64,000 bases of DNA, from contig NZ_JACJSM010000001.1 in NCBI RefSeq assembly GCF_014698145.1, positions 344,633-408,632 of the forward strand, given 5' to 3'. The stretch comes from Oscillatoria sp. FACHB-1406 (GTDB lineage: Bacteria > Cyanobacteriota > Cyanobacteriia > Cyanobacteriales > Spirulinaceae). Both the position numbers and the translations under genes were made by a program. The notes under the pieces were generated by a model. The model was not told the origin of the DNA and searched no databases. It worked only from the letters and a program-made list of their open reading frames with translations. Position 1 is the stretch's first letter, and each line of letters opens with the position of its first letter. Below are positions 15,586 to 44,341 of this stretch, one piece after another.

Positions 15586-16695
15586 CTATCGATCGATCCC
15601 GAGTCGCTGGCGCAAAAAGATTGCCATCTCCTGTCCCACAACAGGACTGCGAGCGACTAAATGACCTTCGCTATCGGTCAGTTCTAGCTTACTAAAATCG
15701 AGTTCCTGCGATCGCGTCCACATCTCCTGCGCCACTCGATCCTGTCGAGATGCACTCAGATCGTACCACTCATCTTTTAAACTCACCGCCAAGCGACTGC
15801 CAATAAAATCCGCTTGAATCGACTGAATCAAACCATCCGCATACTGGCTAGTAATTTGAGCAACCTGCGTTTTAATCGCTGCAATTAAACGCTGTTCTGG
15901 GGTAAGAACCGGTTCCGGTGGCGCTTCCACCACGATGGGTTCTTCAGGCTGCGCTGCGATTTCAGCAGGAATCGGAGTTGCAACTTCTGAAGGGGTATCT
16001 ATCGGCGCGACAGGTTCTTCTGCGGCGGTAGGAACTTCCGATGCAGGAGAATCCTTCGCCGGTTCGCTAACCGATGGCAACGGGACGACCGTAACGGGAA
16101 CTTCTACCACCGATGGCGACGGGACGACCGTAACGGGAACTTCTACCACCGAGGGAGAAGGATTAACAGTAACGGGTGTTTCCAACGACGGCGAAGGAGC
16201 AACAGTCACCGGAACTTCAATAACGTTGGGTGAAGGAGTAACGGTGACGGGGGCTTCAACCTTATTAGGCGCAGGCGCGACAGCAACGGTTTTTGGTGGC
16301 GAATCAGGGATTAAAACGGCGATGAAAGCAATAACAGCGGCGACGAGTCCGGCTAAGATTCCAGCAAGCGCGCCATTAGAGAGTTTTTCATTCAGGGAAG
16401 CTGGGAGGAAAGAGCGCAGCTTGGCAAAAAAACCGCGTTTGGGTGGGGGTGCAACTGCGGTTTTCGCTACATCTGCGGCGCGTAGAGCGGGCGCAATAGG
16501 CGCGAGATCGGTCTCTAACGCTTCTAAATCTTCTGCGAGGCGAGTGAAAGCCGTCGTAGGCGGTAACGCATCGATTGTAGCCGATTCGAGACGGCGAGCG
16601 ACGCGATCGAGTTGTTGAATCGTCTCCCGCAGAGACTTTAGCGCGTCCGCCTTCGATAAAGTGTCCGGTCGTTCTGGCGCTCCTTCCGACATCAT
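15586..16695 (-). CDS. Hypothetical membrane-anchored protein with an internal Pro/Val-rich 13-aa tandem-repeat region and a conserved C-terminal domain
   Basis: 369 aa with one transmembrane helix. Repeats read PVTVxPSPSVVEV, encoded by near-identical 39-bp DNA repeats. Confidence 0.45.
   Translation of the reverse strand: MMSEGAPERPDTLSKADALKSLRETIQQLDRVARRLESATIDALPPTTAFTRLAEDLEALETDLAPIAPALRAADVAKTAVAPPPKRGFFAKLRSFLPASLNEKLSNGALAGILAGLVAAVIAFIAVLIPDSPPKTVAVAPAPNKVEAPVTVTPSPNVIEVPVTVAPSPSLETPVTVNPSPSVVEVPVTVVPSPSVVEVPVTVVPLPSVSEPAKDSPASEVPTAAEEPVAPIDTPSEVATPIPAEIAAQPEEPIVVEAPPEPVLTPEQRLIAAIKTQVAQITSQYADGLIQSIQADFIGSRLAVSLKDEWYDLSASRQDRVAQEMWTRSQELDFSKLELTDSEGHLVARSPVVGQEMAIFLRQRLGIDR
16071..16260. 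repeat. 39-bp in-frame tandem repeat, about 5 copies, the first two 38/39 identical, inside the CDS 15586..16695
   Basis: ccgatggcaacgggacgaccgtaacgggaacttctacca repeated directly. It encodes PVTV.PSPSV.EV units on the minus strand. Confidence 0.7.
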
Positions 16696-17752: not shown

Positions 17753-18580
17753 ATGTCCCTTAAAAATATTGCTCGAGAAACGCTAGAAATGCTCGATCGC
17801 GGTTTCTTTATCGCTCCTAACGGCGAGCAAATTTCCTTGCAACCCGCCTTAGAAAACGCGATCGCACAAACTCGCCTTTACACCCCCGAAGAAGGCGCAC
17901 AGTTACTAAACGCCGCCCCTTCCTCACCGGGCAACCTTGCAACCCTTGAAGTCACCGATGAAACCACCCAGATTGCAGCTTACCGCCTCGTTGTAACCGA
18001 ATCCGTCCCCGATCTCGTCCTATTAAACTTTGCCTCAGCCCGCAATCCCGGCGGCGGATTCCTCAACGGAGCTAAGGCGCAGGAAGAAGATTTGGCGCGC
18101 TGTTCGGGGCTATATCCTTGTTTGCTAACGCAACCGGCTTACTACGAAGCCAATCGAGCCAATGAATCGGTACTTTACAGCGATCGTATCATCTACTCGC
18201 CCCGCGTGCCGTGGTTTCGCACTCGCAGCCACGATGCCCCCAACACCCTATTTTTAGCCTCAGTGATTACCGCCCCCGCACCGAATGCTGGAGTCGCCCT
18301 TCAACGCAATCCGGGTTGCGCCAAGGAGATAGAGACAGCGTTACGCCGCCGTGCTGGGATAGTGCTGGCGATCGCTGCTGCCCAAGGACATCGCAACCTA
18401 CTTTTAGGCGCTTGGGGCTGCGGCGTATTCCAAAACCAACCGCCTTTAGTTGCCGATGCGTTTGGAAAATGGCTCTCTTCCGAACGATTTTTCGGGGCAT
18501 TCGATCGCGTCGTCTTTGCAATCTACGATCGCACCGCCGATAAAGCAACTCTCAAAGCGTTTCAAGCGCGATTTTCCTAG
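17753..18580 (+). CDS. Bacterial-type poly(ADP-ribose) glycohydrolase-like macrodomain protein (DUF2263/TIGR02452)
   Basis: NFASARNPGGGFLNGAKAQEEDLARCSGLY contains the PARG signature GGG-X7-QEE. Its ATG directly abuts the TAA of the upstream gene (translational coupling). Confidence 0.6.
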   Translation: MSLKNIARETLEMLDRGFFIAPNGEQISLQPALENAIAQTRLYTPEEGAQLLNAAPSSPGNLATLEVTDETTQIAAYRLVVTESVPDLVLLNFASARNPGGGFLNGAKAQEEDLARCSGLYPCLLTQPAYYEANRANESVLYSDRIIYSPRVPWFRTRSHDAPNTLFLASVITAPAPNAGVALQRNPGCAKEIETALRRRAGIVLAIAAAQGHRNLLLGAWGCGVFQNQPPLVADAFGKWLSSERFFGAFDRVVFAIYDRTADKATLKAFQARFS

Positions 18581-18672
18581 TCCGCTCTGCCGAACTCACA
18601 TCTATAAGACTCTCAGCTTTTTCGAGCCAAGATTCCGGGCAAAATCCCGCTAATCACTCTTGACAAAATTAT

Positions 18673-19593
18673 TTGAGTACAAGCTGGATAGATCGCACGT
18701 ACTGCTTTCTGTTTTATCATATAGTGTATCAACACTACATCTCAATTAACCTTATGGGAGCTACTCGAAAATCCAAGAATCCAGTCGTTGAGAAGTTTTA
18801 TAAGAAAGATAACATTTGTAATATCTGCCAAAAGGAAAGTCTATTATCAATAGATCACGTGCCTCCTCAATGTTGCCCACCTGCTAAAAGTAGAGTTACT
18901 TCTAAATTGTTATATCAATTTATCGGTGATACTTCTTTTCGTCCACGCCAAGACCAAAATGGTATAACATATAAAACAATTTGCGCTAACTGTAATAACT
19001 TATTGGGATCGAAATATGATAAAGCTTTAGGGGATTTTTCAAAAACCATTGAGAGTTTTGTTGAAAGTCACTTGATTTTGCCCGATTCTTTTGAAGTTGA
19101 ATTTCATCCCAATGCAGTTATGCGTTCTGTTTTAGGCCATATTCTCGCAGCAAAAACCGAAACCGATAATATTGTATTGGACGAAATAATTCGACCATCT
19201 ATAATAAATCCATCCACACCGATTCACGAAGACATTCATGTTTTTTACTGGGTTAATCCTTATGAAAAAACCATAATTCTTAGGGATTATTGTAGGTTGG
19301 CAGTGCCTGGGAAATTTGATAAGGTTGGATTTTTTAATCTCATAAAGTTTTATCCGGTCGCTTTCTTAGTTACCTATAAACTTCATCATTACAAAGGTCT
19401 GCCTAGCTTGCATGACTTCAATAGCCTTTCAATTCATGATAAAATACAGGTTAAGATTGACCGAAACTCTACTCGAAAAGAAAGTTTTCCCGAACGAATA
19501 TCTGATAGAGATGTCTTGCTTCATGGTAGAAGCGCCGATGATTCTGTCTATTCATTGCCAAAATCGAAATCAAAAAAAAAGAAAAAGTTTTAA
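18673..19593 (+). CDS. Hypothetical protein with an HNH-like (CxxC...DH...CxNCN..LGxK) His-Me finger-like motif. The likely start is ATG ~18754. It ends in a poly-Lys tail and lies in an AT-rich, HIP1-free insert.
   Basis: CNICQKESLLSIDHVPP ... CANCNNLLGSKYD. Local GC is far below its flanks and no GCGATCGC occurs across ~1 kb. Confidence 0.35.
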   Translation: MSTSWIDRTYCFLFYHIVYQHYISINLMGATRKSKNPVVEKFYKKDNICNICQKESLLSIDHVPPQCCPPAKSRVTSKLLYQFIGDTSFRPRQDQNGITYKTICANCNNLLGSKYDKALGDFSKTIESFVESHLILPDSFEVEFHPNAVMRSVLGHILAAKTETDNIVLDEIIRPSIINPSTPIHEDIHVFYWVNPYEKTIILRDYCRLAVPGKFDKVGFFNLIKFYPVAFLVTYKLHHYKGLPSLHDFNSLSIHDKIQVKIDRNSTRKESFPERISDRDVLLHGRSADDSVYSLPKSKSKKKKKF

Positions 19594-19637
19594 GTTTGTA
19601 AAAGTCGATCGCAGTCTGATATAGCCTTATCCAGAAC

Positions 19638-19838
19638 TCAGGTTAAGTAAAAGTGCTTGAAGTTGCGGTAGTGATGTAGGTGGAAAGCAACCAGAATCGT
19701 CATGATTTCGCTCAGAGCCAGTCCACGTTGGCGTTGGCGGTTTTTTACCCCTTCGCTGAGTAATCTTTTTTGCCACTGGGGTTCAAATTGTTGGCAAAAA
19801 TCGTCAATGTTACAGAACAGTTCTTCTAAACTAGACAT
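19638..19838 (-). pseudogene. Truncated IS transposase N-terminal fragment (IS982-family-like), 66 aa
   Basis: MSSLEELFCNIDDFCQQFEPQWQKRLL...SEIMTILVAFHLHHYRNFKHFY resembles the conserved N-terminus of a cyanobacterial IS transposase family. The ORF ends after 66 aa, so this is a remnant. Confidence 0.4.
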
Positions 19839-19846
19839 AGGGAGAG

Positions 19847-19902
19847 ACCCGTTGCAGGTTTGATCGTTTGCAGCTTACAGGGTCTCTCCCTTTTTTGGCT
19901 AG
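19847..19902 (+). terminator. Strong hairpin GGGAGAGACCC-(29 nt)-GGGTCTCTCCC followed by TTTTTT
   Basis: Perfect 11-bp stem plus T6. It closes the AT-rich insert before the kef-like gene. Confidence 0.5.
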
Positions 19903-20024
19903 CCCGCACCTCCGCTACGCGATCGCATTCCCCTTATCCCGAACTGACGTTAGAATGGATTGGAAGGCGAATTTTAGAGATTGAAGCCCTATCGATCGCT
20001 ACTCGGACTCCTAACGCTAATCGT

Positions 20025-22040
20025 TCAAATCGCCCCAGAACTCGATGAATCGTCCGCTAGCAAGGCTCTCAGGGCGGCAACTTCGGAACGCTTGCCGACG
20101 ACTAAAAGGCGATCGCCCGATCTCAACGCCGTTTGTGCTTTAGGATAATAACTCGTCTCGCCGCCGCTTTGAATCGCCATGACCGTCACGCCGGTTAAGT
20201 TGCGCACGTTAGCAGAGGCTAGGGTTGCACCATCGAGGGGAGAAGGAGTAGGAACGTCAATCCATTCGTTGTGCAGGCTAGTTGCCGCCTCGCTGATATC
20301 GTTTTGGAAGGCGATCGCGGCGCGTTCCGGGCGAATATTGAGGTAGCGATTGGTGCGTAGCGTCGAAATGGTGTCGTCGATCGCGGGTTTGCTTTCGCCG
20401 AGGGTAGAAAGGAGGTGGGAACCAATCTCTAAAGCTGCCTCAAACTCCGGTTGGACGACCTCTGTGGCTCCCATTTGGGTCAAAAGGTCAATTTCGCTAT
20501 TTTCGTGCGATCTCGCCACAATGTCCAAATTTGGGGCGATTTCGAGGGCGTGTTTGAGCAGCAGGCGGGTACTGCCGGGATCGGGAAGCGCAATGGCGAG
20601 GGCTTTTGCTTTTTCTAAATGCGCTTTTTCCAAAACCAGCTTCGAGTCGCTATCGCCGAAAATATAGGGCATTCCTTCGGATCGTAACTTTTGGATTGCG
20701 GCTTCGCTATTGTCGATGACGATGAGAGGATAACCGCGATCGCGTAAAATATTGGTCACGACGCGCCCGACGCGCCCGTATCCCGCTACAACGATATGAT
20801 TGCAAAGCGTTTCGGGGACAAATAGGGGCTTATCGCGCTGCCACTGGCGCAAGTATCGTTCGAGTGGGGGAAAATTAGCGAGTTTATCCGCAAGGCGGGG
20901 CGAAAATTTCATCGCGATCGGAGTAATCACTAAAGTAATCGCTGTCGTTCCCACCAACAATAAATACTTTTCCCGTTCGATTAACCCCATTTCAAAGCCT
21001 TTTAAGGCTAAAACAAAGGAAAACTCTCCAATTTGATTGAGTCCTAAACTCACTAATATTGCTGTTTTAAAGGAATATCCAAACCTCAGAATAATCGGCA
21101 GCACAATCAGCGCTTTTCCGACCATAATCAAGACAACTAATTCCAGGATAATAACGGCGTTATTCCATAAAACCCCTGGATCGATCAGCATCCCGATTGA
21201 AACAAAGAATAAACTCGCGAAAGTATCTCTAAGCGGTAGAACTTTAGCCAGGGCTTGGTCGGAATAATCGATTTCTGAGAGCATCAAACCTGCCACAAAC
21301 GCTCCCATTTCAATCGATAACCCCAAACTTGCCGTCAGTAAAGCAACGCCCAAACACAAAGCAATCGTCACTAACAAAAATAATTCGCTATTCTCCGTTT
21401 GGGCAATCCGTTTAATAATCGGCGGTACGAGCCAATATCCCGCTGCTAAAGCTAGAGTAAAAAAGAGCAAAACTTTCAACAGGGCGACCCCTAAAGCCGT
21501 TCCAAAATCTTCCGGATTTTTGAGCGCGGGCAACAAGGCTAACATTAACCCCAATGCTAAATCTTGAACGATTAAAATTGCCAGCATTGCTTGACCGTGA
21601 ACCGTATTCGTTTCGCCGCGCTCGGTAAGCGTTTTTAAAACAACAGCGGTTGAGGAAAGCGATAAAACTGCTCCTAAAAATAAGCCTTCGAGGGGAGATC
21701 TGACAACACTTAAAACGAAGGATCCCAAAGCAACCAATAAAATGGTCGAACCCATCTGTAAGACGCTGCCTTGGATGGCAATATCCTTAACGCGCTTCAA
21801 TTCTGTGAGAGAAAATTCAACGCCGAGGGCGAAAAGAAGAAAAGCAACGCCGATTTCTGCGAAGGGTTGAATGCGTTCGGGCGTATCTAAAAGTCCGAAA
21901 CCCGAAGGGCCGACTAAAATTCCTATTGCCAAGTAACCTAAAAGCACGGGTTGCTTGAGGCGATTCGCCACGAATCCTCCGATCGCGGAGGCACTTAAAA
22001 CCGAAGTCAAATCGAGAAGGAAGGGACTGACGGCTGCCAT
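20025..22040 (-). CDS. Monovalent cation:proton antiporter-2 (Kef-type K+/H+ antiporter) with C-terminal RCK/TrkA-N and TrkA-C domains
   Basis: 671 aa with 12-13 transmembrane helices. Rossmann motif VVAGYGRVGR is present, followed by a TrkA-C-like tail. Confidence 0.8.
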   Translation of the reverse strand: MAAVSPFLLDLTSVLSASAIGGFVANRLKQPVLLGYLAIGILVGPSGFGLLDTPERIQPFAEIGVAFLLFALGVEFSLTELKRVKDIAIQGSVLQMGSTILLVALGSFVLSVVRSPLEGLFLGAVLSLSSTAVVLKTLTERGETNTVHGQAMLAILIVQDLALGLMLALLPALKNPEDFGTALGVALLKVLLFFTLALAAGYWLVPPIIKRIAQTENSELFLLVTIALCLGVALLTASLGLSIEMGAFVAGLMLSEIDYSDQALAKVLPLRDTFASLFFVSIGMLIDPGVLWNNAVIILELVVLIMVGKALIVLPIILRFGYSFKTAILVSLGLNQIGEFSFVLALKGFEMGLIEREKYLLLVGTTAITLVITPIAMKFSPRLADKLANFPPLERYLRQWQRDKPLFVPETLCNHIVVAGYGRVGRVVTNILRDRGYPLIVIDNSEAAIQKLRSEGMPYIFGDSDSKLVLEKAHLEKAKALAIALPDPGSTRLLLKHALEIAPNLDIVARSHENSEIDLLTQMGATEVVQPEFEAALEIGSHLLSTLGESKPAIDDTISTLRTNRYLNIRPERAAIAFQNDISEAATSLHNEWIDVPTPSPLDGATLASANVRNLTGVTVMAIQSGGETSYYPKAQTALRSGDRLLVVGKRSEVAALRALLADDSSSSGAI

Positions 22041-24442: not shown

Positions 24443-26242
24443 TTACGATTCGCGATCGAATTGTTGGGCATAAAATTGTGCGTAACGACCATTTTTCTCC
24501 AATAATTCTGCATGAGTTCCAGCTTCGACAATTTGACCTTTTTCAAGCACAAATAAGCGATCGCTGCGGCGAACGGTAGCGAGGCGGTGGGCAATGACAA
24601 ATACCGTGCGATCGCGCATAATTCGTTCTAAGGCTTCTTGGACTAAAGCTTCGGATTCCGAGTCTAAAGCAGAAGTGGCTTCGTCTAGAATGAGGATTTG
24701 CGGATTGAGAAAAACAGCGCGCGCGATCGCGATTCGCTGGCGCTGTCCGCCGGATAAGTTCGCGCCGCGTTCGCCGACATAAGTATAATAACCTTGGGAA
24801 AATTGACTGATAAACTGGTGGGCATTCGCCACTTTTGCAGCCGCTTCTACCGCCGCGAGATCGAAGTTTTCTTGTCCGAAAGCAATATTTTCTGCGATTG
24901 TTCCGGAAAATAAAATTGTTTCTTGGGGAACAATCCCAATTTTTCGCCTTAAACTCGGTAGCGTGACATCGCGAATCTTAATCCCATCGATGAGAATTTC
25001 TCCCGCATCGGGATCGTAGAAGCGAGGCAGTAAATTTAAGAGCGTACTTTTGCCCGCACCAGATGCACCGACAAGGGCAATTGTTTCGCCGGGATGGACG
25101 AGGAAGTTAATATTTTGTAAGGTGGGAGTTTTGCCCTGAAAACTGCTTTCAAGAGGGCGAGAATTGGCGGGAGTATCTTCGTCGTCGATTGACGCAAAGT
25201 AAGTAGCAGCGGGATAAGTAAAATTAACGTTGCAATATTCCACTTTTCCCATAACGGGGGGTAATTCTTTTGCACCGACGGTTTCGATAATCGTGGGTTG
25301 AGTGGCGAATAACTCAAAGATACGATCCACAGAAGCCTCGCCTTGCTTGACTTCGTTGTAGTTATTGGTAGTAATCGCGATCGGATCGATGAGCATCGCG
25401 ACACCGACGCAATAACTAACAAAAGAACTGCCGCTTAAGTTGCCTCTAGAAATTTGCCAGCCGCCGAGTAGAAATAAGAGCAAAACGCATAAAGCTTGTA
25501 AAAAACCAATGACAGGAAATTGAACGGCTTTGAGCTTTTCGGTGGCGTATTTAATGCGGCGATGGCTTTCTGCTTCGCGGTTAAAAACAGCGATCGCGCT
25601 TTCTTCGGCAGCGAAGGCTTTAATCGCGCGCATTCCGGCAAAGCGTTCGACAAGTAAGGCGGAAAGATTAGAAATTCGGCTTTGACTGCGGAGGGAAAAC
25701 TTTCGCATTTGTTCGCCAAACCAGCCGATCAAAACCGCCATTAAAGGCGCGATAATAAAGGTAGCAAGGGTGAGTTGCCAGTTGAGATAAATAACGTAGC
25801 CTAAAACAACGATAACTTGCAGAACGCAGGGTATAAATTGATGGAAGATTTTTTGGACGACTTCGCCGACGCGATCGACATCTTCGGTGAGGCGATAGGA
25901 TAAATCCCCGGTTTTGCTCGATTCAAAGTAATCGATATTGAGGCGTTGTAGGTGAGCGTAAAGACGAGTTCTGAGATTATAAGCAATGGCGAGCGCTGCT
26001 TTCGCCATTAAACTATCTTGTCCGTACTGGGCTATTTTTTGAATGAGGAAGATTGTAGCAGCAACGGCAGCTAAACGCGCGATTTCGCTAACATTCCCCT
26101 CTCCCACCGACTGCGCTACCCACTTCGACAACCACGCCAGCACGGGCCAACAAGCTGTAAATACAAGAGTACAGCACAGTGCGAGCGCGATCGTTCCGCT
26201 TTGAGGGCGAATGTAAGGGGCGAGTTTCCAGTAATTGGACAT
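24443..26242 (-). CDS. ABC transporter, fused permease/ATP-binding protein (MsbA-like exporter)
   Basis: 599 aa: six N-terminal transmembrane helices, Walker A GASGAGKST, the signature LSGGQRQRIAIARA, and Walker B ILILDEATSALD. Confidence 0.85.
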   Translation of the reverse strand: MSNYWKLAPYIRPQSGTIALALCCTLVFTACWPVLAWLSKWVAQSVGEGNVSEIARLAAVAATIFLIQKIAQYGQDSLMAKAALAIAYNLRTRLYAHLQRLNIDYFESSKTGDLSYRLTEDVDRVGEVVQKIFHQFIPCVLQVIVVLGYVIYLNWQLTLATFIIAPLMAVLIGWFGEQMRKFSLRSQSRISNLSALLVERFAGMRAIKAFAAEESAIAVFNREAESHRRIKYATEKLKAVQFPVIGFLQALCVLLLFLLGGWQISRGNLSGSSFVSYCVGVAMLIDPIAITTNNYNEVKQGEASVDRIFELFATQPTIIETVGAKELPPVMGKVEYCNVNFTYPAATYFASIDDEDTPANSRPLESSFQGKTPTLQNINFLVHPGETIALVGASGAGKSTLLNLLPRFYDPDAGEILIDGIKIRDVTLPSLRRKIGIVPQETILFSGTIAENIAFGQENFDLAAVEAAAKVANAHQFISQFSQGYYTYVGERGANLSGGQRQRIAIARAVFLNPQILILDEATSALDSESEALVQEALERIMRDRTVFVIAHRLATVRRSDRLFVLEKGQIVEAGTHAELLEKNGRYAQFYAQQFDRES

Positions 26243-26579
26243 AGGGAATGAGGCTTAGGAATGTTTGGTAACATTATAAGCAGGCGATCGCCCTACCGTT
26301 CGGATAAGACCTCAGTATCCTTACGACAAAGGTTACAGAGTGCATCCGATCTCTCGGACTTGCAAACAACTTCGCAATTTGCTAAGATTTGTAGAATAGA
26401 TCGGTACACGAGGGCATGAGTTCGCCTACTTATAAGGAAGCGACTTAAACACTATCCAGTCGTGCGAACTCAACGATAGGTCTATTCCTGTCAGCGTCTA
26501 CTAGAACAATTTATTAAACGATTCATCGAAAAGTTATGCTTAAACAACTTTTTTTTATTGCTAATACAATACCATTTTT

Positions 26580-26988
26580 ATGCGTATCATTTCAGAATCA
26601 AAACTCAAGCGTTTTTGGGAGACAAAAATTGATTCTCAAGAGCCTTTAAGAACATGGTGTAAATTAACGAAGACAAGCAATTGGAAAAATTTTGTCGAAG
26701 TCAAACAAACGTTTTCTTCGGCAGATATTGTAGGAAAATTAACAATATTTGATATAGGGGGCAACAAATACCGCTTAATTACATTTATAGACTATGAACG
26801 CCAAAAGATATTTATACGCTATATATAGCGTTTTTCATATGCGTGAGGTACAGATTCCAAAATCAAATTGGTAGGGGCGCAAGCCTTGCGCCCGTTGGGT
26901 GTACCTCACTCGCGTGAAAACTGCTATATTAACTCACTATGAGTACGATCGAAATAAATGGAAAAAAGACCCGTGGAACAAAACATGA
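26580..26988 (+). pseudogene. higB: higB-family type II toxin (RelE/ParE superfamily) interrupted by a ~96-bp insertion. The N-terminal 81 codons lie at 26580-26825 and the C-terminal remainder (…LTHYEYDRNKW…) at 26929-26988 in another frame.
   Basis: The N-terminal part reads MRIISESKLKRFWE…FSSADIVGKLTIFDIGGNKYRLITFIDYERQKIFIRYI*. After the insert, …THYEYD… continues the HigB C-terminus. Removing 26826-26928 restores FIRYILTHYEYD in one frame. Confidence 0.55.
26826..26928. mobile_element. MITE-like ~96-bp insertion with terminal inverted repeats (GCGTGAGGTACA / TGTACCTCACTCGCG), an inner GC hairpin (GGGCGCAAGCCTTGCGCCC), and a flanking 7-bp direct repeat GCTATAT
   Basis: Read directly: inverted termini, nested hairpin, and duplication of GCTATAT at both junctions. 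It splits higB out of frame. Confidence 0.5.
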
Positions 26989-27088
26989 ACTATAGTTTGA
27001 CTAATAAAAATCAAAAAAAGCAACCCTTGGAGATTATCGAGCTTTTGATAATCTCCATAATTAGATTAACAAGCTCAGTGATTTCCCA

Positions 27089-27490
27089 ATGATTCACTCA
27101 TGTAATTACGTTGAATTAATCAATATCTTTCCTCCGCGCCCTATAACCTCAGAGGCTCAACTCTTAGCGACTCAGGAAATAATTGATTCTCTACTGGACA
27201 AAGAGGAGTTGAATTCTGATGAGCTTGAATACCTTGATGTATTAGGAACATTAGTTTATGAATATGAAAAAACACAAGAGTTGATTCCCGATATTTATGG
27301 TGTAGAGCTATTAAAAGCCTTGATAATGGAATTGGGTTTACGACAAAAAGACCTTGTTCCTGTTTTTAAGACTGAATCTATTGTGTCCGCTGTGCTGAGC
27401 GGTCAGAGGCAGCTTACAGCAAAGCATATCCAACAACTTAGTGAGTTTTTTCATATCTCACCTGCTGCCTTCTTCCCCATGTGTCACTAA
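27089..27490 (+). CDS. higA: HigA-family antitoxin (HTH, COG5499-like)
   Basis: 133 aa. LINIFPPRPITSEAQLLATQEIIDSLL…LGTLVYEYEKTQ…SAVLSGQRQLTAKHIQQLSEFFHISPAAF matches the HigA partner pattern. It lies downstream of higB. Confidence 0.6.
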   Translation: MIHSCNYVELINIFPPRPITSEAQLLATQEIIDSLLDKEELNSDELEYLDVLGTLVYEYEKTQELIPDIYGVELLKALIMELGLRQKDLVPVFKTESIVSAVLSGQRQLTAKHIQQLSEFFHISPAAFFPMCH

Positions 27491-27500
27491 AGTGCGTTCT

Positions 27501-40859: not shown

Positions 40860-43800
40860 ATGAACGCAGGAAAAACGAGAATTTACGAGCTATCTAAAGA
40901 ATTGAACCGAGATAACAAAGATATTTTGGAAATTTGCGAACGGCTTAACATTGCCGTAAAAAGTCACAGCAGTACCATTGACGATGCCCAAGTCGAACGG
41001 ATTCGGGCAGAAGCAAAACGCTATCCTCACAAAGCACCAAGCGGTGTGGGGTCGAGCGATTCCGTAGGAAACCGCCCAGCAGCGCGGGGTAACGAACGAA
41101 ACCCCGAACCCGCCCGCGAACTCCGCAAACCCCAAATTCGAGAAATCTTGAAATCAACGACCCCTCCCTCTTCCCAAGCATCGGCTCCCACCCCCCCAAA
41201 ATCTATGGTGCAAGCTGCTCGACCGCGATCGCCGCTCGAACCTAGCAAGTCGGTCGAGGAGGCGCTCGAACCTTTAGAAACCCCCAACCGCGAAGACAAG
41301 CCCTGGGAGGGCGAAACCGACTCGGATTTCGCCGCTTCGCCCGAACCGGAAGCGTCCTCGCCGCAATTGCTATCGCCGCCGCCGCGCGGTGCGAAATCTC
41401 CGGATTTCACCAAAGTTAGCGCGATCGAGAAACCGATCCTCAGCAAACCGAAGAAAAAGGTGAAACCGGGCGAAGCCCGGAGCAGCAGTCCTGCCCCCCG
41501 CCCCTCTGCCGGAACAGAAGGAAAAACGCCCGTCAAACCAGCAGCGCCCGTGAAAGGTTCGGGGAAAGGCCCTGCTCTGGGAGCCAGACCCAAACCCCCC
41601 AACGCGCCGAAACTCGATGCGACCTTAGCCCCCCCGCCGGAACGAACGGTTCCGACTCCCGACGACGAGTTAGAGGAAGAAACCTTACTACTCGATCCGC
41701 CGACCGAAAAACCCAAACTCAAGCGCCCAACTCCCCCGCGCGCCTTCAAACGCGATGCCGAATGGGAAGATGAGGAAGAAGAAGGGGCAGACGGTAAAGG
41801 CAAAGTCGGTAAAGCAGGCAAGCTAGCCGGTAAAGGGAAGCGTCGCAGCACGATGCTCGAAGATGAAGAGGAAGATCTAGAAGAACTCCAAACTCAGCTT
41901 CAGAGTCAAAGTTCGGTCAGTATTTCCATTGCTCGCCCGCCCAAGCCCGCAGCAATGCAGGCTGCCGAACAAGCAACGGTAGCCGCTAAGAAAGCCAGAA
42001 AAGCGACTCCTAAAACCGGAGATAGTAGTTCCAGCCGCAATAAGACTCGCGAACGACAAACGGCGAAAGTTGCGCCGACTACGCCCGATCGCATCGTCTT
42101 GCCGGAAAGTCTGACCGTGCGCGAATTAGCCGAACGACTCTACATCTCTGAAAATGATGTAATTACCAAGCTCTTCATGCAGGGGATTGGGGTAAAAATC
42201 ACCCAAACCATCGACCTGGCGACAGCGAAACTCGTCACCGACGAACTGGGCGTGACGGTTGAAGCTCAGCAGGCCGAAAAATCTGCCGCTGCGAAAACGG
42301 AGATGATTGAAGAGCGAGATCTTGAAAGTCTCCAGCGCCGTCCGCCTGTTGTTACGATTATGGGTCACGTCGATCACGGTAAAACAACCCTGCTCGACTC
42401 GATTCGCAAAACCAAAGTCGCTCAAGGCGAAGCGGGCGGAATCACCCAGCATATCGGCGCGTACCACGTTGATGTCGAACACAACGGTCAAACCGAGCAA
42501 GTGGTGTTTCTGGATACGCCCGGTCACGAAGCGTTCACGGCGATGCGCGCGCGCGGCGCTCGGATTACCGACATTGCCATTTTGGTGGTGGCAGCAGACG
42601 ACGGCGTGCAACCGCAGACGCGGGAAGCGATCAGCCACGCGAAAGCTGCCGGAGTGCCGATTATTGTTGCGATTAACAAAATCGACAAGCCCGACTCCAA
42701 TCCCGATCGCGTCATGCAGGAGTTGACCGAACTCCAACTCGTTCCCGAAGAATGGGGCGGCGAGACGATTATGGTTCCCGTGAGCGCAATGACGGGCGAG
42801 AACCTCGATACGCTCTTGGAGATGATTCTGCTGGTAGCGGAAGTCGAACAACTCGAAGCCAACCCCGATCGCAACGGAAAAGGTACGGTCATTGAAGCCC
42901 ACCTCGATAAAGCGAAAGGTCCGGTGGCAACGCTATTGATTCAAAACGGCAGCCTGCGCGTCGGCGATATCGTCGTAGCCGGTTCGACGTTTGGGAAGAT
43001 TCGCGCCGCGATCGACGATCGCGGAAACCGGGTTGAAGACGCTACGCCATCCTTTGCCGTTGAAATCTTGGGACTCAACGACGTACCCTTAGCTGGGGAC
43101 GAATTTGAAGCCTTCGACAACGAAAAACAAGCTCGAGAGCTAGCCGAATCGCGAGCGATGGCGATTCGCGAAACTCGCCTAACCAGCGCCCCCGGTCGCG
43201 TCAGCTTGAGCAGTTTGTCCGCCCAAGCCCAAGAAGGAACCCTCAAGGAACTGAATTTGATTGTCAAAGCCGACGTGCAAGGCTCGGTCGAAGCACTCCT
43301 CGGCGCGCTCAAGCAGCTTCCTCAAGGCGAAGTCCAAGTCAGCGTCTTATTTGCCGCTCCCGGCGAAATCACCGAGACCGATGTGGACTTTGCCGCAGCG
43401 AGTAGCGCGGTTATTGTCGGTTTCAACACCGCTCTCGGTAGCGGCGCGCGTCAAGCCGCCGATCGCGCTGGCGTAGACATTCGCGAGTACAACATCATCT
43501 ACAACCTCCTCGACGACGTACAAGCGGCGATGGAAGGTCTCCTCGAACCAGAAGAAGTGGAAGAATACCTCGGTACTGCCGAAGTTCGCCAAGTCTTCAA
43601 CATTGGAAAAGGATCCGTAGCCGGGTGTTACGTGCAGTCCGGGCGTATCGTCCGCAACCGTCGCATCCGCGTCCGTCGCGGTAACGAGGTCATTCATGAA
43701 GGCACTCTCGACTCCCTCAAGCGCGAGAAGGAGAATACCACTGAAGTTAAAGCCGGTTTTGAATGCGGAATTGGCACGGCTAAGTTCAATGAGTGGAAAG

Positions 43801-43862
43801 AAGGCGATCTGATTGAGGTTCACCAAATGATTCTCAAGCGCCGCACGCTGTCAGTTAAATAG
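40860..43862 (+). CDS. infB: Translation initiation factor IF-2
   Basis: G-domain motifs [24 protein letters not shown] and NKID are present. N-terminal Pro/Ala-rich region. 1000 aa. Confidence 0.95.
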
Positions 43863-43887
43863 GGTGGAGATCGCCAGATCGATATCG

Positions 43888-43919
43888 AGCGCGGCGAGGC
43901 AAAAAAACCTCGCCGCGCT
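43888..43919 (+). terminator. Intrinsic terminator hairpin GCGCGGCGAGG-CAAAAAAAC-CCTCGCCGCGC, 26 nt after the infB stop
   Basis: Perfect 11-bp GC-rich stem. The downstream T tract is weak (TGTTACTGAAGCGTTTT). Confidence 0.5.
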
Positions 43920-44134
43920 GTTACTGAAGCGTTTTGCAATCTAGTTTACATAACGTTAGAAAAAATTAAGTTATCCTAGGAGTTGAAGAGCAAAATTCAA
44001 TTTATTAACGCTTCCCGCACTTGCCAACAGGGTAGAGAAACCCAACCCTCTAACCCGGTTTTGGGTAAAAGATGGGTTAAGAAGTCGAGGAAAGATTACT
44101 CTTTAGGATAAATCCATTTTTTGGAGGTAATGTC

Positions 44135-44341
44135 GTGCCAAATCCATGCCCAACATCCGCAACCCCTTTTTCTGAAGAGGATCGGCAAATCTGGGAAAAT
44201 TTAAAACGCGCGATCGCGTCGAGTTCTGGCTTTCAACGCTGGCAAATCGAACAACAATTAAAGGACAGTCCGGCGGTATCCGGCTCGGATTCCCTGATTC
44301 GCCTCTACTTGCGCGAAACTTTGGAAACTTTAGCGTATTAG
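44135..44341 (+). CDS. Small hypothetical protein, 68 aa, GTG start
   Basis: GGAGG lies 6 nt upstream of GTG. No motif recognised. Confidence 0.35.
   Translation: MPNPCPTSATPFSEEDRQIWENLKRAIASSSGFQRWQIEQQLKDSPAVSGSDSLIRLYLRETLETLAY

What the first reader, a model, noticed from the sequence alone, without database searches (positions are those of the whole stretch)
18581..19905. AT-rich, HIP1-free insertion carrying an HNH-like gene and a transposase remnant
Between the PARG-like gene and the kef-like gene, GC drops sharply and no GCGATCGC occurs for ~1.3 kb. Flanking DNA has a HIP1 site roughly every 100-200 bp.

The insert encodes one ~280-aa protein with a CxxC…DH…CxNCNxxLGxK pattern. This is spaced like a His-Me/HNH nuclease finger with an inserted segment, and the protein carries a poly-Lys tail.

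An antisense 66-aa fragment of an IS transposase N-terminus follows, then a strong terminator hairpin. This looks like recently acquired foreign cargo. It is a candidate stand-alone nuclease, possibly an addiction or defence-type element left behind by a decayed IS or transposon.
Basis: partly seen in the sequence, partly recalled or inferred. Interest (0 to 1): 0.6.

Follow-up and report, generated by a model that had tools for sequence, protein, structure and literature searches.

The report
Foreign stand-alone HNH nuclease gene
An AT-rich islet between two ordinary cyanobacterial genes carries an intact gene for an unnamed family of HNH-type DNA-cutting enzymes that travels alone on prophages, plasmids and defence islands, and beside it lies the unrelated wreck of an IS982 insertion sequence.

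Summary
GC falls from about 52-58% to 35% (GC3 28% against 51-55% in the neighbours). The 279-aa ORF, its Cys/His/Asn motif and Lys tail, the 66-aa transposase fragment and the hairpin are all present. The HIP1 gap is not unusual: it is the 12th longest in the window, P about 0.16.

The protein belongs to a large unnamed family, with about 2,000 clusters at 50% identity, all about 270 aa. Its N-terminus is a divergent Cys4-zinc HNH module. The whole-protein AF2 model has no relative among solved structures. The ββα-Me fold could not be confirmed structurally.

The family always occurs as a single gene without a conserved partner. It sits in a P2 Z/fun prophage slot, a lambdoid nin region, integrase islets, plasmids, a conjugative element and a Nostoc type I R-M operon. 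The gene is AT-richer than its surrounding locus in all six cyanobacterial homologue loci examined.

My best reading is a horizontally acquired single-protein nuclease, probably used in defence or competition between mobile elements. That role is inferred, not shown.

The transposase fragment is an IS982 left end that extends to 19952. The "terminator" hairpin is part of the IS leader. A second IS982 end abuts the gene. IS982 did not demonstrably deliver the gene.

The parts
18581..18753 (+). AT-rich spacer between the PARG stop codon and the start of the nuclease gene. It is the left edge of the low-GC islet. No conserved element was found in it.
   Evidence: GC profile. There is no similarity to the upstream DNA of homologous loci. 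A 9-mer resembling the IS982 end at 18590-18598 is not significant.
18754..19593 (+). Intact gene for a 279-aa protein of an unnamed HNH-type family. The ATG at 18754 is chosen by alignment with homologues, not the upstream TTG at 18673.
   Evidence: ORF list. It is 100% identical to a hypothetical protein of Oscillatoria sp. FACHB-1406, and 103 homologues were found. The family has 2012 clusters at 50% identity. All invariant family residues are present.
18817..19020 (+). Codons 22-89: the Cys4-zinc HNH core. It contains C22xxC25, D34-H35, a roughly 30-40-residue insertion, N69-G70, C77xxC80-N81 and D89.
   Evidence: Invariant or near-invariant columns. Pfam HNH_5 in 52/117 members and Endonuclease_7 in 7/117. 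PHROG endonuclease VII hits at E 0.003 and 0.014. Hpy99I is the only PDB candidate. AF2 places H35 at the end of strand 31-36 and N81 in the first turn of helix 78-103.
19066..19560 (+). Codons 105-269: the C-terminal alpha/beta region with invariant H129, P201 and P246, and conserved GHLLAAK, YWxYPY, RD, K-FYP-AF and WPE motifs. Its fold has no solved relative.
19561..19590 (+). Lys/Ser-rich C-terminal tail (KSKSKKKKKF). It is modelled with low confidence and is present only in the closer cyanobacterial homologues.
   Evidence: Alignment. pLDDT is below 50 for residues 275-278.
19606..19645 (-). Second, solitary IS982 terminal repeat (19645->19625, TAACCTGAGTTCTGGATAAGG) plus about 20 nt of leader-like sequence. 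It has the same orientation as the first end, cuts the transposase ORF at codon 65-66 and lies 12 bp from the stop codon of the nuclease gene.
   Evidence: Direct repeat with 19920-19952. It matches the IR of the complete Nostoc IS982 at 20 of 21 positions.
19638..19838 (-). First 66 codons of an IS982-family transposase, then a stop. The rest of the gene, including the catalytic domain, is absent.
   Evidence: tblastn finds annotated IS982 transposases at 54-67% identity. blastp gives 67% identity over 66 aa, E 3e-29, with no further remnant in 18.5-20.1 kb. NCBIfam IS982 hit at E 0.0016.
19839..19891 (-). IS982 leader hairpin (12-bp perfect stem) whose 3' arm ends at the transposase ATG. On the + strand it reads as a hairpin followed by T6.
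   Evidence: A hairpin occupies the same position, with different stem sequences, in complete IS982 copies L101 and L102.
19932..19952 (-). Outer terminal inverted repeat (left end) of the IS982 remnant, TAACGTCAGTTCGGGATAAGG. This is the true right edge of the inserted DNA.
   Evidence: It matches the IR of the Nostoc IS982 at 19 of 21 positions. That IR is defined by comparing the two ends of L101.

Best explanation
Two unrelated pieces of foreign DNA lie side by side between the convergent PARG-like and kef-like genes.

(1) A roughly 1-kb AT-rich cassette (18581 to about 19605) carries one intact gene for a 279-aa protein of a large, unnamed family.
- The N-terminal third is a zinc-stabilised HNH/His-Me nuclease module of the T4 endonuclease VII / HNH_5 type.
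- Two CxxC pairs would hold the zinc. H35 would be the general base, and D34 and N81 the catalytic metal ligands. An elaborated loop is inserted between the two halves.
- The other two thirds are a conserved alpha/beta region. It packs with the HNH part into one globule and has no solved structural relative.
- I infer that this region decides what DNA is cut or when.

The family moves as a single-gene cargo unit among prophages, plasmids, conjugative elements and defence islands. The most likely role is therefore a one-protein nuclease that attacks incoming phage or plasmid DNA. The absence of a partner methyltransferase or immunity gene points to a modification-dependent, structure-dependent or trigger-activated mode rather than classical restriction-modification.

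(2) The remnant of an IS982 insertion sequence (19606-19952) consists of:
- a left terminal repeat;
- a leader hairpin;
- 66 transposase codons;
- a second IS982 end that cuts the remnant short.

This is decay debris of an independent insertion, not the vehicle of the nuclease gene.

Shown: composition, family membership, motif conservation, solitary and variable context, IS982 anatomy.
Inferred: nuclease activity, the role of the C-terminal region, the defence function.
For: Foreign composition:
- Gene GC is 34.8% and GC3 27.9%, against GC3 51-55% in the neighbours.
- In six cyanobacterial homologue loci the gene is 1-12 GC points below its locus.

Family:
- 103 close homologues, nearly all from filamentous cyanobacteria.
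- 2012 clusters at E<=1e-3, and the 150 best listed hits are mostly about 250-300 aa (range 159-317).
- Named only "hypothetical", or "chaperonin" in enterobacteria.

HNH assignment:
- Invariant across 117 members: C22, H35, P38, G70, C77, C80, D89. Conserved at >=90%: C25, D34, N81.
- HNH_5 in 52/117 members (best E 9.8e-8) and Endonuclease_7 in 7/117.
- PHROG endonuclease VII hits.
- Hpy99I is the sole PDB profile candidate, aligning CNIC and ICxxCNxxLG.
- AF2 secondary structure fits strand(DH)...strand-helix(CxxCN).

Solitary mobile cargo:
- No family recurs in more than 4 of 128 neighbouring proteins. The commonest are integrase, terminase and tail genes.
- Only the coding sequence is conserved between loci.
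- The E. coli member, at >=94.6% nt identity, sits in four settings. These are the P2-like slot between tail sheath and tail fibre, a lambdoid nin region, an integrase islet, and between IS26 copies on plasmids.
- The P2 Z/fun slot is a documented cargo/defence hotspot (bioRxiv 10.1101/2024.10.15.618418).
- In Nostoc the gene lies inside a type I R-M operon beside Macro, HTH-M78 and HigB genes.
- It is next to a giant helicase and an HNH gene on an ArdC-bearing element.
- 49 IMG/VR contigs carry it.

IS982 part.
Against: - The window protein itself is below every curated Pfam threshold (HNH_5 14.3 bits against 27.5).
- No PADLOC model matches the window protein or its E. coli and Vibrio relatives.
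- No paper testing a member turned up in my searches.
- In this window the gene is not in a defence island. Its neighbours are PARG, a phosphoesterase and Kef.
- Three cyanobacterial homologues also sit among housekeeping genes.
- How a lone nuclease would spare host DNA is unknown.
- Whether the site is empty in close relatives could not be tested.
Confidence: 0.5

Rival explanations
1. Selfish free-standing homing-type endonuclease gene. The HNH enzyme cuts a cognate empty site in genomes that lack it, and the gene is copied in by repair. It persists for its own spread and gives the host no benefit.
For: - It is a solitary HNH gene with no partner.
- Only the ORF is conserved between loci.
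- Its positions are intergenic and often in opposite orientation to the neighbours.
- It is AT-rich in every host examined.
- It is present in phage and prophage genomes.
- Many free-standing phage homing endonucleases are HNH enzymes (PMC5714182).
Against: - Near-identical E. coli copies lie in at least four unrelated sites (P2 tail region, lambdoid nin region, integrase islet, IS26-bounded plasmid segment). That does not fit homing to one cognate site.
- Cyanobacterial copies lie at different chromosomal positions with no shared flanks.
- No filled/empty allele pair could be found.
Confidence: 0.17
2. A housekeeping nuclease of mobile elements rather than a weapon. Examples are an endonuclease VII-like resolvase or debranching enzyme, or an HNH helper of terminase for DNA packaging. 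The cyanobacterial copy would be a stranded leftover of a lost prophage.
For: - The similarity is to the endonuclease VII branch of His-Me nucleases.
- Some viral copies lie near terminase, portal or replication genes.
Against: - In P2-like and lambdoid prophages the gene sits in accessory slots and occurs in only 141 of 5426 E. coli genomes. It is therefore not a core phage function.
- Many copies are on plasmids or in chromosomal islands without phage genes.
- The window has no prophage genes around it.
- The copy is intact with every invariant residue, which is unlike debris.
Confidence: 0.1
3. Not a nuclease. The two CxxC pairs form a structural zinc ribbon in a DNA-binding or regulatory protein, and the HNH-like matches are motif coincidence.
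For: - All profile matches of the window protein are below threshold. One of them is to a non-nuclease zinc-binding family (Yippee-Mis18, E 0.0047).
- No fold match to any ββα-Me structure was obtained.
Against: - Besides the four cysteines, the residues needed for catalysis are invariant or nearly so across 117 members at 23-40% identity: H35, D34, N81 and G70.
- HNH_5 reaches E 9.8e-8 in some members, and both halves of that profile are matched in the right order.
- Three independent libraries (Pfam, PHROGs, PDB sequences) all point to the endonuclease VII/HNH group.
Confidence: 0.08

Closest known systems
T4 endonuclease VII / restriction endonuclease Hpy99I (Pfam Endonuclease_7, His-Me finger group 13 of PMC5714182)
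   Same: - The C-x2-C ... D-H ... C-x2-C-N-x2-L-G pattern is shared, with a Cys4 zinc site framing the catalytic His and Asn.
- Hpy99I is the only solved protein found by the family profile.
- Endonuclease_7 is hit by 7 of 117 members.
   Different: - About 41 residues separate DH from CxxCN here. From the Hpy99I sequence aligned and from my recollection of T4 endonuclease VII, the spacing there is about 10-16 residues.
- All matches are below significance for the window protein.
- The protein carries a 170-residue C-terminal region with no counterpart.
- There is no evidence for junction resolution or for a fixed recognition sequence.
Pfam HNH_5 (PF14279) nucleases, such as the HNH partners of ABC-ATPase defence systems (Septu PtuB, retron effectors)
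   Same: - This is the best profile match for the family: 52 of 117 members, best E 9.8e-8.
- PtuB was a weak hit for the Vibrio member.
- HNH_5 domains are used as effectors in phage defence (PMC11464382).
   Different: - The family has no ATPase or reverse-transcriptase partner. It is always alone.
- The window protein scores 14.3 bits against a threshold of 27.5.
- The two halves of the profile are split by an insertion.
Solitary modification-dependent (type IV) HNH restriction enzymes such as McrA (listed in His-Me group 1, PMC5714182)
   Same: The layout is the same: a single gene, no cognate methyltransferase, an HNH catalytic module joined to a second domain that would select the target, and carriage on prophages and islands.
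   Different: - The domain order is reversed, with HNH first.
- Modification dependence is pure conjecture here.
IS982-family insertion sequences, for example the complete copy on Nostoc sp. C052 plasmid pC052_B (L101)
   Same: - Transposase residues 1-66 are 67% identical.
- The terminal repeat TAACCTGAGTTCGGGATAAGG matches at 19-20 of 21 positions.
- A leader hairpin abuts the ATG.
   Different: - Only the left end and 66 codons remain.
- A second end in direct orientation interrupts the remnant.
- There is no right end and no catalytic domain. It is a dead remnant.

Membership tests
HNH / His-Me finger nucleases (Pfam HNH_5, Endonuclease_7) | Profile match at or above the curated family threshold | tested here: inconclusive
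   The window protein scores HNH_5 14.3 bits (cut-off 27.5) and Endonuclease_7 13.5 bits (cut-off 23.6). At family level, HNH_5 matches 52/117 members at E<=0.01, best 9.8e-8.
HNH / His-Me finger nucleases (Pfam HNH_5, Endonuclease_7) | Conserved catalytic His (general base, usually preceded by Asp) and an Asn/His metal ligand at the start of the helix | tested here: met
   H35 is invariant, and D34 and N81 are conserved at >=90% over 117 members at 23-40% identity. All three are present in the window protein.
HNH / His-Me finger nucleases (Pfam HNH_5, Endonuclease_7) | Two CxxC pairs forming the structural zinc site of the endonuclease VII-like subgroup | tested here: met
   C22, C77 and C80 are invariant and C25 is conserved at >=90%. 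Zinc binding itself was not tested.
HNH / His-Me finger nucleases (Pfam HNH_5, Endonuclease_7) | ββα-metal fold | tested here: inconclusive
HNH / His-Me finger nucleases (Pfam HNH_5, Endonuclease_7) | Metal-dependent nucleic-acid cleavage | not testable with these tools
   This needs biochemistry.
IS982-family insertion sequence | Transposase homologous to IS982 transposases | tested here: met
   67% identity over residues 1-66 to an annotated IS982 transposase, E 3e-29. 169 plasmid records match.
IS982-family insertion sequence | Family-type terminal inverted repeats at both ends | tested here: not met
   Two left-type ends lie in direct orientation (19952->19932 and 19645->19625). No right end was found. 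It is a remnant, not an element.
IS982-family insertion sequence | Complete transposase with catalytic domain | tested here: not met
   The ORF stops after codon 66 of about 293. tblastn finds no further transposase remnant in 18.5-20.1 kb.
Known anti-phage defence systems (PADLOC-DB 2.0) | Match to a model of a known or candidate defence protein | tested here: not met
   There is no real hit for the window protein (Cas8b E 0.0024 is noise) or for the E. coli and Vibrio members (PtuB E 0.0084 only).
Known anti-phage defence systems (PADLOC-DB 2.0) | Residence in defence islands or mobile-element cargo hotspots | tested here: inconclusive
   Met for homologues: the P2 Z/fun slot, a Nostoc type I R-M operon and an ArdC-bearing element. 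Not met in this window or in L001, L006 and L010, where the neighbours are housekeeping genes.
Known anti-phage defence systems (PADLOC-DB 2.0) | Protection against phage or plasmid when expressed | not testable with these tools
   This needs infection assays. No paper testing a member turned up in my searches.
Type II restriction-modification system | Cognate DNA methyltransferase gene next to the endonuclease gene | tested here: not met
   No methyltransferase family appears among the 25 commonest families in 128 neighbouring proteins from 41 loci (33 family clusters). There is none in the window. The HsdM in the Nostoc loci belongs to the type I system.
Toxin-antitoxin / addiction module | Conserved adjacent partner (antitoxin or immunity) gene | tested here: not met
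   No recurrent neighbour was found. No ORF of 40 aa or more lies on the + strand between PARG and the gene other than overlapping reading frames.
Free-standing homing endonuclease gene | Occupancy of one cognate site, with empty alleles in close relatives | tested here: inconclusive
   Near-identical E. coli copies occupy at least four unrelated sites, which argues against it. No close relative of this cyanobacterium exists in the collections: the best Kef homologue is 75% identical and the best PARG homologue 71%.

The most novel reading that the evidence does not exclude
The roughly 270-aa family is a previously unrecognised single-protein immune nuclease. It joins an endonuclease VII-like HNH module to a new kind of sensor or target-selection fold with no solved relative. 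It is spread across bacteria from E. coli prophage hotspots to filamentous cyanobacteria, and it works without a methyltransferase, ATPase or antitoxin partner.
Probability: 0.3. Interest if true: 0.65.

Novelty: new variant of a known kind. Interest (0 to 1): 0.42.

Why it matters
If the family is a one-protein defence nuclease, it would add a compact and very widespread system to the bacterial immune repertoire. There are about 2,000 sequence clusters, and it is present in 2.6% of complete E. coli genomes. How its C-terminal fold tells foreign DNA from host DNA would then be an open mechanistic question. An E. coli member sits in prophage cargo slots, so the idea can be tested directly with standard phage panels.

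For this window the practical result is more modest. The islet is a real horizontal acquisition. The IS982 debris and its hairpin are explained. HIP1 absence should not be used as evidence of foreignness over stretches this short.

Tried and rejected
- HIP1 depletion as evidence: rejected. The gap ranks 12th, P is about 0.16, and HIP1 density is uncorrelated with GC.
- Structural confirmation of the ββα-Me fold:
  - Foldseek against PDB, best E 0.23.
- PDB sequence and profile searches: only Hpy99I, at E 0.6-1.2.
- PADLOC and NCBIfam: no match.
- Presence/absence at the PARG/kef junction:
  - 80 Kef-homologue loci from genomes (best 75% identity) and 80 PARG-homologue loci from metagenomes (best 71%) share no synteny with the window. 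None has the HNH gene nearby.
  - The exact protein is on a single contig.
- Functional link to PARG or Macro genes: considered because Nostoc copies abut a Macro gene. Rejected, because 0 of 80 PARG loci carry the gene and Macro does not appear among the 25 commonest neighbour families.
- Conserved flanks or terminal repeats of a larger mobile unit around the nuclease gene: none.
- A third IS982 end at the left border (18590-18598): only a 9-mer, not significant.
- C-terminal region fused to other domains elsewhere: not found.
- PD-(D/E)xK reading of D178...K198: rejected. The residue two positions before the Lys is hydrophobic, and there is no fold match.
- Rfam: only a sub-threshold hit (RF02592, 29.6 bits against 47) on the IS hairpin. 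It is absent from the other IS982 copies, so it was treated as chance.
- tRNA genes as an integration site: none.
- Literature: none of the 17 papers returned by the one keyword search for HNH cargo in P2-like hotspots addresses such a gene in the Z/fun slot. Rousset et al. 2022 studied the old/tin hotspot and does not mention HNH.
Full report
**What is in the sequence**

By an exact protein match, the window comes from Oscillatoria sp. FACHB-1406.

Between the stop of a microbial-type PARG gene and the stop of a convergent Kef-type transporter gene, GC falls sharply.
- PARG is 17753-18580 (Pfam PARG_cat_microb, E 1.9e-50). The Kef-type gene is 20025-22040, minus strand.
- GC drops from 0.52-0.59 to 0.33-0.37.
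- The ORF in the trough has GC 34.8% and third-position GC 27.9%. PARG, Kef and the upstream phosphoesterase have GC3 51-55%.

The compositional signal is therefore real and strong.

The HIP1 argument is not.
- The window holds 89 GCGATCGC sites, with a mean spacing of 719 bp.
- The gap 18368-19919 is only the 12th longest.
- A 1325-bp stretch has no site with probability about 0.16 at the window's density.
- HIP1 density is uncorrelated with GC.
- Only against the dense immediate flanks (spacing 127-510 bp, not 100-200) is the gap notable.

**The gene**

Alignment with homologues puts the start at the ATG at 18754, not the upstream TTG. This gives 279 aa ending at 19593.

The protein has 103 close homologues at 28-69% identity. 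Nearly all are from filamentous cyanobacteria and all are unnamed. A profile search of 1.84 billion representatives finds 2012 clusters at E<=1e-3 and 465 at E<=1e-30. The 150 best listed hits are mostly about 250-300 aa (range 159-317) and most cover nearly the whole profile.

It is thus a large, fixed-architecture family with no Pfam, NCBIfam or PADLOC model of its own. It matches one PHROG of unknown function (phrog_21495, E 6.8e-15).

**Is it an HNH nuclease?**

The sequence evidence agrees across libraries but is sub-threshold for this protein.
- The window protein scores 14.3 bits on HNH_5 (threshold 27.5) and 13.5 bits on Endonuclease_7.
- Across 117 diverse members, HNH_5 is hit by 52 (best E 9.8e-8) and Endonuclease_7 by 7.
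- The two halves of the HNH_5 profile match the CNIC...DH part and the TICxxCNxxLG part separately.
- Two PHROG endonuclease VII families are weak hits.
- The only PDB sequence reached by the family profile, in two independent searches, is the ββα-Me restriction enzyme Hpy99I (E 0.6-1.2). It aligns both CNIC and ICxxCNxxLG.
- Over 117 members sharing 23-40% identity with the window protein, C22, H35, P38, G70, C77, C80 and D89 are invariant. C25, D34 and N81 are conserved at >=90%.

This is the endonuclease VII pattern: a Cys4 zinc site, Asp-His, and Asn directly after the second CxxC. Here about 41 residues, rather than about 10-16, separate DH from CxxCN. The His-Me classification paper notes that this loop ranges from minimal in endonuclease VII and Hpy99I to elaborate in other members (PMC5714182).

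The AlphaFold model is confident (pLDDT 86.2, pTM 0.87). It places H35 at the end of strand 31-36 and N81 in the first turn of helix 78-103, after strand 71-77.

The direct fold test failed to decide.

I therefore treat the HNH assignment as well supported by sequence and unconfirmed by structure.

**The rest of the protein**

Residues about 105-269 form a conserved alpha/beta region. It has invariant H129, P201 and P246, and the motifs GHLLAAK, YWxYPY, RD, K-FYP-AF and WPE.
- It has no relative among solved structures.
- A profile search found it only joined to the HNH part.
- The high pTM suggests the two parts form one globule.

Its role in choosing the substrate or gating activity is inferred.

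**Where the family lives**

In nine independent contexts from assemblies the gene is always solitary and its neighbours differ.
- In three Nostoc loci it lies, in opposite orientation, inside a type I R-M operon next to Macro, HTH-M78 and HigB genes.
- It lies beside a QueC-like/HTH-M78 cluster and a BrnT toxin.
- It lies after a giant DEAD/MZB helicase and an HNH gene on an ArdC-bearing element.
- It lies in a Zot-carrying element.
- It lies among housekeeping genes.

Only the coding sequence is conserved between loci. In six cyanobacterial homologue loci the gene is 1-12 GC points below its locus.

Distant members (24-30% identity) are on plasmids of E. coli, Klebsiella, Shigella, Pseudomonas and Vibrio, and in a P2-like coliphage.

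The E. coli member is in 141 of 5426 complete genomes. At >=94.6% nucleotide identity it occupies four settings:
- between the tail sheath and tail fibre genes of phage pro147, the position of the P2 Z/fun cargo hotspot (bioRxiv 10.1101/2024.10.15.618418);
- the nin region of a lambdoid prophage next to hokD;
- an integrase islet on the chromosome;
- the same islet, cut by IS26, on plasmids.

49 IMG/VR contigs carry a relative. I scanned 128 non-redundant neighbouring proteins from 41 loci (33 family clusters). No family recurred in more than four. The commonest were integrase, terminase and tail proteins. No methyltransferase, ATPase or antitoxin partner emerged.

**Interpretation**

The family behaves as a self-contained cargo gene of mobile elements, concentrated where prophages and islands keep accessory and defence genes.

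The most economical mechanism is a single-protein DNA nuclease used against incoming phage or plasmid DNA. Because no modification or immunity gene accompanies it, host DNA must be spared in some other way. Possibilities are dependence on a foreign base modification, on a DNA structure, or on an infection signal. None of this is shown.

No PADLOC model matches, and no paper testing a member turned up in my searches.

- The homing-endonuclease alternative is weakened by near-identical copies in unrelated sites, but not excluded.
- A core phage function is unlikely given the patchy distribution.
- A non-catalytic zinc protein is unlikely given invariant H35 and conserved N81.

**The transposase fragment and hairpin**

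The 66-aa antisense ORF (19638-19838) is the N-terminus of an IS982-family transposase. It is 54-67% identical to annotated copies, E 3e-29 against a Nostoc plasmid copy.

Comparing the two ends of that complete element defines its terminal repeat, TAACCTGAGTTCGGGATAAGG. The window has this repeat at 19952->19932 on the minus strand (19 of 21 positions). It is followed by a leader, then the hairpin 19891->19839 whose 3' arm ends at the transposase ATG.

Complete IS982 copies from Nostoc and Cyanobacterium have a hairpin in the same place with different stem sequences. The hairpin is therefore an IS982 leader feature. On the plus strand it looks like a terminator because of the adjoining T6. 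It could incidentally stop read-through from the nuclease gene, but that is not why it is there.

At codon 65-66 the transposase frame runs into a second IS982 end (19645->19625, 20 of 21 positions). This end has the same orientation and is followed by about 20 nt of leader-like sequence. It stops 12 bp from the nuclease gene's stop codon.

No right end and no further transposase sequence remain. This is debris from nested or successive IS982 insertions and deletion. Nothing indicates that it carried the nuclease gene.

**What could not be done**

It is not possible with these collections.
- The closest Kef homologue is 75% identical and the closest PARG homologue 71%.
- None of the 160 loci shares synteny with the window or has the HNH gene nearby.

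**Verdict**

This is a real horizontally acquired islet with an intact gene of a large, unnamed, mobile-element-borne HNH family. It is a reasonable candidate for a new one-protein defence nuclease. Next to it lies ordinary IS982 wreckage. Interest is moderate: the kind (stand-alone HNH cargo gene) is known, while the family and its second domain are not.

Noticed in passing
window 26250-27500: A second low-GC islet (GC 34-38%) carries a HigB toxin gene at 26580-26828 (+) (Pfam HigB_toxin, E 6e-25). A 133-aa ORF at 27089-27490 (+) looks like its helix-turn-helix antitoxin but has no Pfam hit. The 330 bp between the ABC-transporter-like gene (stop at 24443, start at 26242, minus strand) and higB has no ORF of 90 aa or more.
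   Followed up: partly
window, whole: HIP1 (GCGATCGC) density is uncorrelated with GC in 1-kb bins (r = 0.08). Eleven HIP1-free gaps are longer than the one in the finding; the longest (41225-44210, 2985 bp) has GC 55%. HIP1 absence over 1-2 kb is therefore not a marker of foreign DNA here.
   Followed up: yes
window 19919-19926: A HIP1 site lies inside the leader of the IS982 remnant, and a CGATCG core lies in the second, truncated end (19606-19611). The element may therefore have been resident in HIP1-rich cyanobacterial genomes for a long time.
   Followed up: no
window 19837-19895 (+): There is a sub-threshold Rfam match to RF02592 (S. pyogenes antisense RNA 392987): 29.6 bits against a gathering score of 47, E 0.0078, full model length. 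It lies exactly on the IS982 leader hairpin, antisense to the transposase start. It was not found on the two complete IS982 copies examined, so it is probably chance. An antisense regulator of the transposase start is conceivable.
   Followed up: partly
window 15586-16695 (-): A 369-aa ORF contains tandem proline-rich repeats of the type PVTV-x-PSPSV-x-EV and has no Pfam match.
   Followed up: no
L003 6001-6831, L008 6001-6825, L009 1893-2717: In three Nostoc assemblies the family gene sits in opposite orientation inside a type I R-M operon, between hsdR and a Macro-domain gene. HTH/M78 peptidase, HigB-like toxin, hsdS and hsdM genes follow. In Nostoc commune (L003) hsdR is broken into fragments.
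   Followed up: partly
L093 6013-6822; L094; L152-L154: The enterobacterial family member WP_000161640.1 is frequently mis-named "chaperonin" in public records. It occurs at >=94.6% nucleotide identity in at least four different mobile-element settings: a P2-like tail-gene slot, a lambdoid nin region beside hokD, an integrase islet, and IS26-bounded plasmid segments.
   Followed up: yes
L098 1-4981: On a metagenomic conjugative-type element, the family gene follows a helicase of more than 2000 aa (DEAD, YjiV_N and MZB domains) and a separate 246-aa HNH (PF01844) gene. ArdC/MPTase-PolyVal anti-restriction genes are nearby. This may be a multi-gene defence or counter-defence cluster.
   Followed up: no
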